Origin: Escherichia coli
GTDB lineage: Bacteria; Pseudomonadota; Gammaproteobacteria; Enterobacterales; Enterobacteriaceae
DNA: 64,000 nt
Direction: 5' to 3' (one strand)
NCBI RefSeq assembly: GCF_965641715.1
Contig: NZ_OZ282453.1
The position numbers were made by a program. Below are positions 29,501-32,500 of this stretch, piece after piece (position 1 is the first letter of the stretch; each line of letters starts with the position of its first letter).

Positions 29501-32500
29501 ATTTATCGGCAATAACGCCGCTGGGGGCATAAAGAATAATAGCTGCAATACCAAAGGTACTCATTATTAAACCTATCTCGGTATTGCTGAATCCCATAAA
29601 TTTCGCCATGGGAATTTGATAAATATAACGTAAATAAGCCAGGTCGAAACTAACGCCGCCGCTAAAACTAATTATCGCGAGGGTTATCCAACGGCGATAT
29701 GAGTTGTGTTGCATATCGTATTCCCATTTGTAATAGACAAAAAAAAGAGAAAAGTAAGCCGCCCTTTCAGGTGGATTACTTTTCTCAGGTCTCTAGTAAT
29801 TGAAATAATAAATAACATGGAAAGCAGAGGTGTTGTGTGAGAGTAATCACGCTTCTGCTTTTTAAAACTATTTGATAATGCGAATATCACACTGTGATTA
29901 CGATCACATTAGCAGTTATGTCCTTATGCTACAAATTATCTCCAGTTACCAGAGATAATGAGAAAGGTAACTTCCCTCTCGCGGGGGAAGTTACCTTTCT
30001 TTTTTTTTGCCTTACGGAAATTGGAGCTAACTATGTCAATCGAATCTCTCAATACGTTCTCAATGGATTTTTTCTCCCTGAAAGGTAAAACCGCAATTGT
30101 TACCGGCGGGAATAGCGGTTTAGGCCAGGCATTTGCCATGGCGTTGGCCAAAGCAGGCGCAAATGTCTTTATTCCAAGTTTTGTCAAAGATAACGGCGAA
30201 ACAAAGGAAATGATTGAAAAACAGGGTGTTGAGGTGGACTTCATGCAGGTGGATATCACCGCAGAAGGCGCGCCGCAGAAGATAATCGCCGCCTGTTGCG
30301 AACGTTTCGGTACCGTCGATATTCTGGTTAACAATGCCGGTATTTGTAAGCTGAATAAGGTGCTGGACTTCGGTCGTGCCGACTGGGACCCGATGATTGA
30401 TGTGAACCTGACCGCCGCATTCGAGTTAAGCTATGAAGCGGCAAAAATTATGATCCCGCAGAAAAGCGGTAAAATCATTAATATCTGTTCATTATTCTCT
30501 TACTTAGGTGGACAATGGTCACCTGCATATTCTGCCACTAAACATGCTCTTGCCGGATTCACCAAAGCTTATTGTGATGAACTAGGTCAATATAATATTC
30601 AGGTAAATGGTATTGCCCCTGGCTATTATGCAACAGATATTACGCTGGCGACACGCAGTAATCCAGAAACCAATCAGCGCGTTCTTGATCATATTCCAGC
30701 AAACCGTTGGGGCGATACTCAGGATTTAATGGGCGCAGCCGTATTCCTCGCAAGTCAGGCATCGAATTATGTCAACGGGCATTTATTAGTGGTCGATGGC
30801 GGTTATTTAGTGCGCTAATCCATAACGGTGGTTTCTGTTTTCTCTTATTAATGATTATTCCATTTTTATTATCAGGAAGGAATTACTATGTCTTTATCTC
30901 GCGCAGCGATTGTCGACCAGCTAAAGGAAATTGTTGGTGCAGATCGCGTAATTACCGATGAAACAGTATTAAAGAAGAACAGTATTGACCGTTTTCGTAA
31001 ATTTCCGGATATTCATGGCATTTATACTTTGCCGATTCCGGCAGCGGTCGTAAAACTCGGTTCCACAGAGCAAGTATCCCGTGTGCTGAATTTTATGAAT
31101 GCGCACAAAATTAACGGTGTGCCGCGTACCGGTGCTTCCGCCACCGAAGGTGGGCTGGAAACTGTTGTAGAAAACTCGGTGGTGCTCGACGGTTCCGCCA
31201 TGAATCAAATCATTAATATTGATATTGAGAATATGCAGGCGACGGCGCAATGTGGCGTTCCGCTGGAGGTGCTGGAAAACGCGTTGCGTGAAAAAGGTTA
31301 CACCACGGGGCATTCTCCGCAGTCAAAGCCGCTGGCGCAGATGGGCGGCCTGGTAGCAACTCGCAGTATCGGGCAGTTCTCCACACTCTACGGCGCAATC
31401 GAAGATATGGTCGTTGGTCTGGAGGCAGTGTTGGCAGATGGCACCGTCACACGCATTAAAAACGTGCCACGCCGCGCGGCTGGCCCGGACATTCGTCACA
31501 TCATCATCGGCAACGAAGGTGCATTGTGCTATATCACTGAAGTAACAGTGAAAATCTTTAAATTCACCCCGGAAAACAACCTCTTCTACGGCTATATCCT
31601 GGAAGACATGAAAACCGGCTTCAACATCCTGCGTGAAATCATGGTGGAAGGGTATCGTCCGTCGATCGCTCGTTTGTATGACGCTGAAGATGGCACCCAA
31701 CACTTCACCCATTTTGCCGACGGAAAATGCGTGCTGATCTTTATGGCTGAAGGTAACCCTCGCATTGCGAAGGCGACGGGCGAAGGGATTGCGGAAATCG
31801 TTGCCCGCTACCCGCAATGCCAACGCGTGGACAGCAAGCTGATCGAAACTTGGTTTAACAACCTGAACTGGGGACCGGATAAAGTGGCTGCCGAACGTGT
31901 GCAGATCCTCAAAACCGGCAACATGGGCTTTACTACCGAAGTGTCCGGCTGCTGGAGCTGTATCCACGAAATCTACGAAAGCGTTATTAACCGTATTCGT
32001 ACCGAGTTCCCGCACGCCGACGACATCACTATGCTGGGCGGTCACTCCTCTCATAGCTATCAGAACGGCACCAACATGTACTTCGTCTACGACTACAACG
32101 TTGTCAACTGTAAGCCGGAAGAGGAAATCGACAAGTACCACAATCCGCTCAACAAAATCATTTGCGAAGAAACCATTCGCCTCGGTGGTTCGATGGTGCA
32201 CCACCACGGTATCGGTAAACATCGCGTTCACTGGAGCAAGCTGGAACACGGCAGCGCGTGGGCGTTGCTGGAAGGGCTGAAAAAGCAGTTCGATCCTAAC
32301 GGCATTATGAATACGGGTACTATCTATCCGATTGAAAAATAATGTGTCAGGCAGCGTTCCGCGATGATGGGGCGTTGCCTTTTCGGCTTCTCAGGCGAGA
32401 AGCCGTTCTTATTACCGGACAATGAAGGGGTAAAGATGAACACTTCACCGGTGCGAATGGATGATTTACCGCTTAACCGTTTTCACTGTCGAATTGCTGC

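What the first reader, a model, noticed from the sequence alone, without database searches (positions are those of the whole stretch)
29961..30032. Intrinsic-terminator hairpin inside the ygcW leader: candidate attenuator, possibly read through by the GlpP-like YgcP
A 16-bp perfect-stem hairpin with T8 (agaaaggtaacttccc / gggaagttacctttct + tttttttt) sits 24 nt upstream of the ygcW start codon on the coding strand. No + strand gene lies upstream, so it is not an ordinary end-of-gene terminator. The same island encodes YgcP, a member of the GlpP family, whose B. subtilis prototype is a leader-RNA-binding antiterminator. A terminator in the leader of the ygcW-ygcU-ygcS-ygcR-ygcQ operon is exactly what such a protein would act on.
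Basis: inference. Interest (0 to 1): 0.7.

Follow-up and report, generated by a model that had tools for sequence, protein, structure and literature searches.

The report
Paired YgcP-type antitermination leaders, ygcW/yqcE
The hairpin before ygcW is a real, working terminator inside the gene's leader, it has a twin in front of the divergent yqcE gene, and both carry a conserved RNA motif that travels with the GlpP-like protein YgcP from E. coli to Listeria, so an uncharacterised E. coli gene cluster very probably is switched on by protein-mediated antitermination.

Summary
A 19-bp hairpin (16 bp perfect; dG -31 kcal/mol, z -7.25) plus T9 ends 24 nt before the ygcW ATG, with no + strand gene upstream. 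Published Term-seq in E. coli MG1655, whose leader is identical, puts an abundant, Rho-independent RNA 3' end in this hairpin.

The two leaders align along their length: CRP site, promoter, RUUACY, AGAGA, N3-4, GAGAAA-RGUAAY, stem, U-run.

This element occurs exactly twice per locus in about 50 Enterobacterales species. It also occurs in Listeria, Bacillus, Clostridium, Sporomusa and Vibrio, always beside the conserved ygcP/ygcW/ygcU/ygcE cluster.

The 5' RUUACY pairs with the start of the terminator's 5' arm, forming a 6-bp helix (P1) that covaries at three positions. P1 is weak, about 15 kcal/mol less stable than the terminator. Its loop holds invariant GAG repeats resembling the GGAGA-N3-GGAGA I found in canonical Bacillales glpD/glpF leaders.

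Best explanation: ligand-bound YgcP, a distinct GlpP subfamily, locks P1 and allows read-through. Binding and ligand are untested.

The parts
29893..29908 (.). Perfect CRP site TGTGATTACGATCACA, centred 29900.5. It would be about -41.5 to -44 relative to the predicted ygcW start.
   Evidence: Sequence. Bound in vivo in ETEC ChIP-seq (PMC4287617) and in vitro with Kd 1.7 nM (PMC12871828).
29836..29851 (.). Second CRP-like site (minus strand CGTGATTACTCTCACA), centred 29843.5, placed symmetrically for the yqcE promoter.
   Evidence: Sequence. It aligns with the first site's half-site in A1. yqcE-ygcE is listed as Crp-activated in PMC8085971. Function inferred.
29927..29939 (+). Predicted ygcW promoter -10 region (TGcTACAAA / AATTAT). 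Predicted TSS about 29942-29945.
   Evidence: Inference from CRP geometry and from the conserved 7-9 nt spacing between the -10 and the P1 strand, seen in clear sigma-A promoters of Firmicutes. RpoD holoenzyme SELEX peak in this spacer (PMC3946193). No TSS data available.
29945..29950 (+). ygcW leader, P1 5' strand GUUACC.
   Evidence: Pairs with 29966-29971. Covaries across 88 unique leaders.
29951..29965 (+). P1 loop holding the two repeats AGAGA (29951-29955) and GAGAAA (29960-29965). Candidate protein recognition site.
   Evidence: G29952, G29954 and G29960-A29961-G29962 are invariant in 88 leaders from two phyla. Same layout as GGAGA-N3-GGAGA in canonical glp leaders.
29966..29971 (+). 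P1 3' strand GGUAAC, which is also part of the terminator 5' arm. This is the shared, mutually exclusive segment.
29960..30008 (+). ygcW leader intrinsic terminator: 19-bp stem 29960-30001, loop 29979-29982, U run 30000-30008.
   Evidence: Term-seq 3' end at C29995. Covariance-model hit of 76.5 bits.
30033..35387 (+). Regulated operon ygcW-ygcU-ygcS-ygcR-ygcQ (SDR, FAD-linked oxidase, MFS transporter, ETF beta/alpha).
   Evidence: ORFs and RefSeq annotation of the near-identical strain F9792. Operon status inferred from spacing.
29795..29800 (-). yqcE leader, P1 5' strand AUUACU.
29781..29794 (-). yqcE leader loop: AGAGA (29794-29790), CCU, GAGAAA (29786-29781).
29775..29780 (-). yqcE leader P1 3' strand AGUAAU. 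Its U29775 pairs with A29800 in P1 but faces a C in the terminator.
29739..29786 (-). yqcE leader intrinsic terminator: stem 29786-29747, U run 29746-29739. The yqcE ATG is at 29714.
   Evidence: Term-seq 3' end at MG1655 2900556(+), equal to window T29750, with 1557 reads, Rho score 0.61 (not Rho) and intrinsic score 11.4. Covariance-model hit of 73.7 bits.
26932..29714 (-). Regulated operon yqcE-ygcE (MFS transporter, FGGY-family kinase).
35535..36110 (-). ygcP, the GlpP-family (G3P_antiterm) protein and proposed antiterminator. It is the last gene of ygcN-ygcO-ygcP.

Best explanation
The ygcW/yqcE intergenic region holds two divergent promoters. At least one sits next to a CRP site shown to be bound; CRP dependence of the promoters is inferred. 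Each promoter produces a leader RNA of about 65 nt. By default each leader folds into a strong intrinsic terminator 24-26 nt before the start codon, so transcription stops; this step is shown in vivo by Term-seq. The first six bases of each leader (GUUACC or AUUACU) can instead pair with the first bases of the terminator's 5' arm, forming helix P1. P1 is a weak antiterminator whose 14-15-nt loop displays two GAG-containing repeats (AGAGA, N3-4, GAGAAA). The second repeat and the P1 3' strand are themselves the terminator's 5' arm. Inferred step: YgcP, loaded with a phosphorylated metabolite (plausibly the product of the cluster's own FGGY kinase YgcE, as G3P from GlpK is for GlpP), binds the repeats and P1 on the nascent RNA. 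This blocks terminator formation, and RNA polymerase reads into ygcWUSRQ and yqcE-ygcE. In short, this is GlpP/glpD-style antitermination carried out by a separate GlpP subfamily on its own leader variant.
For: The terminator is real and used in vivo, and is Rho-independent. A twin element lies before yqcE with the same order of parts. In the 41 Enterobacterales loci that held both genes in divergent order and matched my pattern, the element occurs exactly twice, about 25-35 nt before the ygcW and yqcE ATGs; in a few other loci the pattern found one copy and the covariance model recovered the second. It occurs nowhere else within +/-10 kb or in the 64-kb window. It also lies before the homologous clusters of Listeria, Bacillus, Thalassobacillus, Clostridium, Sporomusa and Vibrio. 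P1 is intact in 86 of 88 unique leaders, with compensatory types GUUACU/AGUAAC, AUUACU/AGUAAU, GUUACC/GGURAC and GUUGCY/RGCGAC. More distant relatives add GUUUC/GAAAC. G.U wobbles occur in P1. The tool count gives 87.6% of cells paired against 18-60% when slid, and 44 double-change cells against 18.2 +/- 2.9 in shuffles (0/500). P1 is the minimum-energy fold of the nascent RNA in 86/88 leaders, but at only -3.6 kcal/mol on average, and the P1 state is 15 kcal/mol above the terminator state, so a factor is needed. The loop Gs are invariant although outside both helices. Canonical GlpP-regulated leaders in four Bacillales genomes show RGAGA-N3-4-RGAGA abutting the terminator 5' arm, preceded by a short complementary element. 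YgcP belongs to PF04309. The core cluster ygcP+ygcW+ygcU+ygcE+yqcE is conserved across phyla. In Firmicute-like metagenome contigs the leader often lies directly downstream of ygcP, as with glpP-glpFK.
Against: No experiment links YgcP to these RNAs, and the ligand is unknown. The TSS is predicted, not mapped; if transcription began inside P1, the helix would be shortened. The loci were found through ygcP, so co-occurrence is partly by construction. In the unbiased RNA-first scan, one leader (L116/L082) precedes an MttB-family/ABC-transporter operon with no ygcP within about 6 kb. One ygcP ortholog (L046) has no leader within 18 kb. Much of the P1 covariation is inherited, with perhaps 5-7 independent events. 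The Term-seq 3' ends lie inside the 3' arms (C29995, T29750) rather than in the U run, so they are processed ends. The GAGA-repeat reading of canonical GlpP sites is my own, from 7 leaders; the mapped B. subtilis binding site was not available to me.
Confidence: 0.7

Rival explanations
1. The leader is a riboswitch, or is controlled by a different trans-factor (another protein or an sRNA). On this view P1 and the loop sense a small molecule directly, and YgcP is merely a co-located enzyme-like TIM-barrel protein.
For: The conserved P1, invariant loop bases and terminator overlap are also the anatomy of a small riboswitch. One leader lies far from any ygcP, and one ygcP has no leader nearby.
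Against: There is no Rfam match. The sensor would be only about 27 nt with a 6-bp helix. The loop repeats match those of leaders known to be controlled by the homologous protein GlpP (PMC9604022, PMC7430163). ygcP is the only regulator-like gene conserved in the cluster across phyla.
Confidence: 0.1
2. The hairpins are constitutive terminators of two small stand-alone RNAs, or simple dampeners, and are not conditional attenuators. ygcW and yqcE would then be expressed only by leak-through or from other promoters.
For: The terminated ygcW leader is abundant (40,640 Term-seq reads) and was classed 'orphan'. Leader-derived RNAs acting as independent sRNAs are documented in the same paper.
Against: The terminator always lies 20-40 nt before the first gene of the operon in Enterobacterales, with no space for another promoter. 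A covarying alternative helix that overlaps the terminator has no purpose in a constitutive terminator. The two roles are not exclusive.
Confidence: 0.1
3. The inverted repeats act at the DNA level, as operators for a DNA-binding regulator or as remnants of a mobile element. On this view the RNA structure is incidental.
For: There is a long perfect palindrome, and the intergenic region as a whole has dyad-like symmetry.
Against: G.U wobble pairs are tolerated in both P1 and the terminator: UG in 15 sequences in P1, and UG:48 at one terminator pair. The stem tops vary freely with compensation. U runs follow only on the transcribed strand. RNA 3' ends map there. No DNA-binding regulator is conserved in the cluster. 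The element is single-copy per operon and not dispersed.
Confidence: 0.03

Closest known systems
Bacillus subtilis GlpP with the glpD, glpFK and glpTQ leaders (glycerol-3-phosphate-dependent antitermination)
   Same: The regulator belongs to the same Pfam family, PF04309. The leader has an intrinsic terminator between the promoter and the first gene, with a protein site upstream of or overlapping it (PMC9604022; PMC7430163). Tandem RGAGA repeats abut the terminator 5' arm, preceded by a short complementary element. The regulated cluster contains an FGGY kinase and an FAD dehydrogenase, as with glpK and glpD. In Firmicutes the regulator gene often lies directly upstream of the leader.
   Different: YgcP-like proteins form a separate subfamily: 55-74% identical to each other from E. 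coli to Listeria, but only 27-32% identical to canonical GlpP. They coexist with a canonical GlpP in Listeria grandensis. P1 is 6 bp rather than 3-4 bp. The repeats are AGAGA and GAGAAA rather than GGAGA twice. The regulon is not glycerol genes, so the ligand is probably not G3P (inference). The covariance model of ygc leaders scores canonical glpD only 14 bits.
E. coli BglG / B. subtilis SacY-LicT with RAT antiterminators
   Same: A weak RNA hairpin that overlaps the terminator 5' arm is stabilised by a sensor protein, and the default state is termination.
   Different: The protein fold is unrelated (CAT-PRD rather than a TIM-barrel-like G3P_antiterm domain). Control is by PTS phosphorylation rather than by a bound metabolite. 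The RAT sequence and structure are different.
HutP, TRAP and PyrR (proteins that read repeated NAG/GAG triplets in leaders)
   Same: Short repeated GAG-type motifs in a 5' leader decide between terminator and antiterminator. The protein is activated by a ligand (PMC2425495, PMC7430163).
   Different: The protein families and the number and spacing of repeats differ. TRAP and PyrR promote termination rather than prevent it.

Membership tests
GlpP-type (PF04309) antiterminator and leader system | A regulator with a G3P_antiterm domain is encoded with the regulated genes. | tested here: met
   ygcP 35535-36110(-): PF04309 E 1.6e-62 over the full length; 3KTS E 1.2e-27 and 1VKF E 8e-15. It is clustered with ygcW/U/E and yqcE in about 60 species.
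GlpP-type (PF04309) antiterminator and leader system | An intrinsic terminator lies in the 5' leader between the promoter and the first gene of the target operon. | tested here: met
   In vivo Rho-independent 3' ends occur in both leaders.
GlpP-type (PF04309) antiterminator and leader system | A leader element upstream of or overlapping the terminator 5' arm resembles those of canonical GlpP targets. | tested here: met
   Canonical Bacillales leaders: RGAGA-N3-4-RGAGA in 4 of 7, with one repeat degenerate in the other 3. ygc leaders: AGAGA-N3-4-GAGAAA with invariant Gs. It is met as a variant; sequence-level similarity is low (14 bits with model R1).
GlpP-type (PF04309) antiterminator and leader system | An alternative (antiterminator) pairing is mutually exclusive with the terminator. 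| tested here: met
   The 6-bp P1 helix is intact in 86/88 leaders, compensatory at 3 positions, and weak relative to the terminator.
GlpP-type (PF04309) antiterminator and leader system | The protein binds the leader RNA and raises read-through in response to its ligand. | not testable with these tools
   This needs EMSA, in vitro transcription or reporter fusions. No published data were found.
GlpP-type (PF04309) antiterminator and leader system | The effector is glycerol-3-phosphate and the regulon is glycerol catabolism. | tested here: not met
   The regulon part was tested: the targets are SDR, FAD oxidase, ETF, FGGY kinase and MFS or BCCT transporters, not glpF/K/D/T/Q. The ligand itself is not testable here. 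The separate subfamily and its coexistence with canonical GlpP argue for a different ligand.
Known riboswitch or RNA leader classes (Rfam 15) | A match to a curated covariance model. | tested here: not met
   No family reaches its gathering score in the window other than CsrB and sok. In the intergenic region the best hits are far below threshold. Canonical glp leaders also have no Rfam family.
Leader-peptide (trp-type) attenuation | A conserved short ORF in the leader whose translation selects the RNA fold. | tested here: not met
   ATG 29958 is in frame with ygcW. However, it lacks a Shine-Dalgarno sequence and is replaced by CUG, AAG or CAG in many orthologous leaders.
Ordinary or bidirectional end-of-gene terminator | It lies downstream of a convergent or co-directional gene end. 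| tested here: not met
   Both flanking genes diverge from the intergenic region. On the opposite strand the ygcW hairpin is followed by CATTATCT, not a T run.

The most novel reading that the evidence does not exclude
YgcP-like proteins and their RUUACY-AGAGA-N3-4-GAGAAA-RGUAAY leaders form a previously undescribed, phylum-spanning riboregulatory module. It would be the first GlpP-type antitermination system in E. coli and other Gram-negatives. It would sense a phosphorylated metabolite other than glycerol-3-phosphate and control catabolism of an unidentified substrate. The BCCT transporters and the MttB-family/betaine-type ABC transporter genes under the same leader in Vibrio, Sporomusa and uncultured Firmicutes hint at a quaternary-amine-related compound.
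Probability: 0.55. Interest if true: 0.72.

Novelty: new variant of a known kind. Interest (0 to 1): 0.62.

Why it matters
E. coli K-12 still has a ten-gene 'y' cluster (ygcN-ygcE) with no known substrate or regulator. This analysis gives it a concrete, testable control circuit: two CRP-site-associated promoters, two leader terminators already seen in Term-seq, a defined 27-nt RNA target and a candidate RNA-binding regulator. It extends GlpP-type antitermination, studied only in the Bacillus glycerol regulon, to a second subfamily with its own RNA motif that spans Proteobacteria and Firmicutes. It also supplies many natural sequence variants for working out how this poorly understood RNA-binding fold reads RNA. 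The leader can serve as a reporter to screen for the cluster's inducer, and, like the glpD 5' UTR, as a portable inducible part.

Tried and rejected
Nothing turned up in the following searches.

- **Rfam.** There was no family for the intergenic region at either the gathering or the E-value threshold, nor for canonical glp leaders.
- **TSS evidence.** Thomason 2015 and Ju 2019 are not held. The Cappable-seq table is truncated at about 0.44 Mb. The bidirectional-promoter preprint and Mendoza-Vargas 2009 have no entry. So the start sites remain predictions.
- **Second 3'-end dataset.** The Dar & Sorek 2018 supplements are not held.
- **Literature on ygcW, ygcP, ygcU and ygcE.** It yields only CRP-site and SELEX listings, with nothing on function or attenuation.
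- **B. subtilis GlpP binding-site sequence.** It appears only as an image in PMC9604022, so I derived the canonical motif from four other Bacillales loci instead.

Ideas considered and rejected:

- **Leader peptide.** ATG 29958 is not conserved.
- **N-terminal extension of YgcW from ATG 29958.** It would place the terminator inside the coding sequence, and that ATG is not conserved.
- **Bidirectional terminator.** There is no T run on the other strand.
- **DNA operator.** G.U wobbles are tolerated.

Alignment problems:

- MAFFT alignment A2 and the covariance-model alignment A3 both mis-register the P1 5' strand in about 16 leaders whose loop is 3 nt longer. The tool's 87.6% paired figure for P1 is therefore an underestimate, and the anchor-based tally is the better count.
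- The metagenome pattern scan returned mostly E. coli-like contigs plus about 25 chance or unexplained matches.
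Full report
**The observation**

The window is E. coli. It is 99.7% identical to strain F9792 and 98.4% to K-12 across the ygcW/yqcE intergenic region. The gene order is ygcE(-), yqcE(-), then the intergenic region 29715-30032. After that come ygcW, ygcU, ygcS, ygcR and ygcQ on the + strand, and ygcP, ygcO and ygcN on the - strand.

- The arms 29961-29976 and 29985-30000 form a perfect 16-bp stem.
- The stem extends to 19 bp (29960-30001) around a 4-nt loop.
- T9 follows at 30000-30008.
- The ygcW ATG is at 30033, 24 nt after the T run.

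As RNA it folds at -31 kcal/mol, against -11.9 +/- 2.6 for shuffles (z -7.25, 0/200). No + strand gene lies upstream.

**Experimental support from the literature**

Adams et al. 2021 (PMC7815308) mapped RNA 3' ends in MG1655, whose leader is identical to the window (L002). Their supplementary files list a 3' end at 2900311(-) with these properties:
- 40,640 mean reads
- 38 nt upstream of the ygcW ATG
- Rho score 0.50, outside any significant Rho region
- intrinsic-terminator score 15.8, where 3 or more suggests intrinsic termination

Their sequence column runs from -50 to +10, which places the end at window C29995. Transcripts therefore start in the intergenic region and end at this hairpin in vivo. 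The entry appears once, in the LB OD 0.4 sheet. The authors did not flag it as a characterised element.

The same table lists a 3' end at 2900556(+), 36 nt before the yqcE ATG. It has 1557 reads, Rho score 0.61 and intrinsic score 11.4.

On the window's minus strand, 29786-29747 is GAGAAAAGTAATCCACCTGAAAGGGCGGCTTACTTTTCTC, followed by T8 (29746-29739). The yqcE ATG is at 29714.

The two leaders align end to end at 76% column identity. The shared order is:
- a CRP half-site
- a TGnTAnnnA / ATTAT promoter region
- RTTACY
- AGAGA
- 3-4 nt
- GAGAAA-RGTAAY
- the stem
- YTTACYTTTCTY
- the T run
- about 25 nt
- the ATG

**CRP sites and promoters**

The perfect CRP site TGTGATTACGATCACA (29893-29908) is bound in vivo (PMC4287617) and in vitro at 1.7 nM (PMC12871828). 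A second CRP-like site (29836-29851) sits symmetrically for yqcE.

RpoD holoenzyme SELEX found divergent promoters in this spacer (PMC3946193). yqcE-ygcE has been listed as Crp-activated (PMC8085971).

**Comparative genomics**

YgcP is a full-length G3P_antiterm protein: PF04309 E 1.6e-62, and E 1e-27 to the Listeria GlpP structure 3KTS.

Searching one genome per species with YgcP gave 64 loci. tblastn shows a conserved core of ygcP, ygcW, ygcU, ygcE and yqcE in about 50 Enterobacterales. The same core appears, at 54-59% YgcP identity and 77% YgcW identity, in six Listeria species, a Bacillus and a Thalassobacillus. Vibrio hannami, Clostridium sediminicola and a Sporomusa MAG have it too.

A pattern for the leader element hits exactly twice in most enterobacterial loci, 20-40 nt before the ygcW and yqcE ATGs. 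It hits nowhere else within +/-10 kb or in the 64-kb window. In the few loci where the pattern found only one copy, the covariance model recovered the second.

The Firmicute and Vibrio clusters carry the same element behind clear sigma-A-type promoters. Examples are TTGACT-17-TATACT-7 nt-GTTGCTAGAGAATTGAGATAAGCGAC... in Listeria grandensis and TTGACA-17-TATACT-7 nt-GTTACTAGAG... in Clostridium. This places the RNA 5' end at or just before the RUURC strand.

A covariance model built from 88 unique leaders (R1) was searched against the window and other loci.
- It gives the two window elements 76.5 and 73.7 bits.
- Every other window hit scores at most 34 bits, and those are the reverse-strand echoes of the palindromes.
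- It finds an extra leader before a BCCT transporter in Sporomusa.

**The antiterminator helix P1**

The first six bases of the leader are complementary to the six bases that follow GAGAAA, which are the start of the terminator's 5' arm.

An anchor-based tally over the unique leaders gives:

| P1 5' strand / 3' strand | Leaders |
|---|---|
| GUUACU / AGUAAC | 36 |
| AUUACU / AGUAAU | 26 |
| GUUACC / GGUGAC | 14 |
| GUUACC / GGUAAC | 5 |
| GUUGCU / AGCGAC | 4 |
| GUUGCC / GGCGAC | 1 |
| C.A at the closing pair | 4 |
| outer-pair mismatch | 1 |

More distant YgcP relatives (46-49% identity) show GUUUC/GAAAC and AUUGC/GCAA(A)U.

Three of the six pairs therefore change on both sides. Some changes arose independently:
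- A-U at pair 1 appears in enterobacterial yqcE leaders and in Sporomusa.
- G-C at pair 4 appears in Bacilli and in one enterobacterium.

G.U wobbles are tolerated. In the E. coli yqcE leader, the U that pairs with A1 in P1 faces a C in the terminator, so that covariation cannot be a by-product of terminator pairing.

The tool count on the model alignment, in which about 16 rows are mis-registered, gives:
- 87.6% of cells paired, against 18-60% for slid partners
- 44 double-change cells, against 18.2 +/- 2.9 in shuffles (0/500)

The terminator itself is 97.4% paired, with 49 double-change cells against 13.7.

Energetics:
- The terminators average -26.7 kcal/mol.
- In the nascent RNA, P1 is the minimum-energy fold in 86/88 leaders, but at only -3.6 kcal/mol on average (-5.7 for ygcW, -0.8 for yqcE).
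- A P1-enforced full-length fold is 15 kcal/mol less stable than the terminator fold.

Termination is therefore the default, and P1 needs a stabilising factor.

**The loop, and the link to GlpP**

In alignment A2, the Gs of AGAGA (29952, 29954) and the GAG of GAGAAA (29960-29962) are invariant across 88 leaders from two phyla. The first repeat lies outside both helices. That is the signature of sequence-specific recognition.

I retrieved canonical glpP-glpF-glpK-glpD loci from Priestia, Bacillus, Lysinibacillus and Paenibacillus. Their glpF and glpD leaders read, for example:
- UUGGUU-GGAGA-AUC-GGAGA-GACCA..., then the terminator
- GUGAC-GGAGA-ACC-GGAGA-GCCAC...

That is, two RGAGA repeats 3-4 nt apart abut or enter the terminator's 5' arm. 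A short element (UGGU or GUG) complementary to that arm (ACCA or CAC) precedes them. Four of 7 leaders have both repeats clearly, and 3 have one degenerate.

The accessible literature says only that each B. subtilis glp promoter has a GlpP site and an inherent terminator in the 5' UTR, that the 5' UTR is portable (PMC9604022), and that G3P-bound GlpP binds the antiterminator (PMC7430163). The ygc leaders thus have the same architecture, with a longer P1 and a variant second repeat.

**YgcP is a separate subfamily**

YgcP-like proteins are 55-74% identical to each other from E. coli to Firmicutes, but only 27-32% identical to canonical GlpPs. Blocks distinguish the two groups, for example LYGNI, EGxSNKE, HRxF and GCMPKVLGW. 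The C-terminal AGGL...S/T-T-S/T-N region is shared; its resemblance to TIM-barrel phosphate sites is my inference.

Listeria grandensis has both a canonical GlpP and a YgcP-like protein. The cluster has its own FGGY kinase (YgcE) and FAD oxidase (YgcU), which parallels GlpK and GlpD. I therefore infer a phosphorylated ligand other than G3P.

**An RNA-first test**

I scanned metagenome contigs with a leader pattern. Most hits are E. coli-like loci with both leaders.

Firmicute-like hits with a true terminator often lie immediately downstream of a ygcP homologue (L084, L112, L142, L173).

Exceptions:
- L116/L082, where the leader precedes an MttB-family methyltransferase and a betaine/choline-type ABC transporter, with no ygcP within about 6 kb.
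- L046, where a ygcP ortholog in Serratia microhaemolytica has no leader within 18 kb.

About 25 further matches are coding-region or AT-rich marine sequences without ygc genes. I treat those as chance or unexplained.

**Verdict**

What is shown:
- two functional leader terminators
- a conserved, covarying, weak antiterminator with invariant GAG repeats
- strict association with a conserved cluster that includes a GlpP-family gene
- architectural similarity to canonical GlpP targets

What is inferred:
- YgcP binds P1 and the repeats
- binding depends on a ligand
- the ligand is a phospho-metabolite made by YgcE
- the exact start sites

Rivals are a riboswitch or other factor (0.1), constitutive small RNAs or dampeners (0.1) and a DNA operator (0.03). 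No description of these leaders or of YgcP's targets was found, and Rfam has no family even for canonical GlpP leaders. I class it as a new variant of a known kind.

Noticed in passing
window 29739-29800 (minus strand): A second leader terminator, with the same P1/GAGA motif, lies 26 nt before the yqcE ATG. It has its own Term-seq 3' end (MG1655 2900556+).
   Followed up: yes
window 29995 (+) and 29750 (-): Both published Term-seq 3' ends lie inside the 3' arm of the hairpins, 6 and 3 nt short of the stem base, rather than in the U run. They are probably trimmed or processed ends: exonuclease nibbling through the A/U-rich stem base, or RNase III cutting the 19-bp duplex. Unexplained.
   Followed up: partly
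window 29836-29851 and 29893-29908: Two CRP sites about 57 bp apart are arranged symmetrically for the divergent promoters. The right-hand one is a perfect consensus and is experimentally bound. The Term-seq signal is absent from the M63-glucose sheet, which fits catabolite repression.
   Followed up: partly
window 29958-30032: An ATG in the P1 loop is in frame with ygcW and has no stop before it (ORF 29958..30818). It has no Shine-Dalgarno sequence and is not conserved in orthologous leaders, so it is not a leader peptide or an alternative start.
   Followed up: yes
L072 17131-17189; L070 9715-11286; L116 6235-11581: In Sporomusa a third YgcP-type leader precedes a BCCT transporter, and Vibrio hannami has a BCCT gene next to ygcP. 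In an uncultured Firmicute the leader precedes an MttB-family methyltransferase and a betaine/choline-type ABC transporter. Together with the fixABCX-like ETF genes (ygcN/O/Q/R), this hints that the unknown substrate is related to quaternary amines.
   Followed up: partly
L011 about 16320-16470 and L012 about 12666-12816: In Citrobacter youngae and Klebsiella spallanzanii a roughly 125-bp insertion that looks like an ERIC/IRU repeat sits between the yqcE leader terminator and the yqcE ATG.
   Followed up: no
L033 13888-13949: In Limnobaculum eriocheiris the ygcW/yqcE spacer is only 133 nt. It holds a single hairpin flanked by A9 and T9 that scores as a leader terminator on both strands. This may be an assembly collapse or recombination between the two inverted leaders. 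In L. allomyrinae (L037) the two hairpins are identical, which suggests gene conversion.
   Followed up: no
L046 (Serratia microhaemolytica): A ygcP ortholog (70% identity) sits after a 1242-aa ORF. There are no ygc genes and no leader element within 18 kb.
   Followed up: partly
L077, L094, L109, L115, L131, L134, L139, L152 and others (marine metagenome contigs): A recurrent AT-rich sequence, ATTACTAGAGGGCACGAGAAAAGTAAT, followed by a weak A/U hairpin and T6, precedes an unannotated ORF. No ygc or GlpP-family gene lies within about 10 kb. It is either chance or a diverged use of the motif.
   Followed up: partly
window 2662-3021; 42850-43006; about 25534-26294: CsrB sRNA (384 bits) and a sok antitoxin RNA (102.6 bits) are present. 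A CRISPR array lies between queE and ygcE; its coordinates were transferred from the F9792 annotation and are approximate.
   Followed up: no
L068, L073-L075 (canonical glp leaders): Canonical glpF and glpD leaders of four Bacillales share a conserved AAGTTAATA just after the promoter, ahead of the GGAGA repeats. No Rfam family covers these GlpP-responsive leaders.
   Followed up: partly
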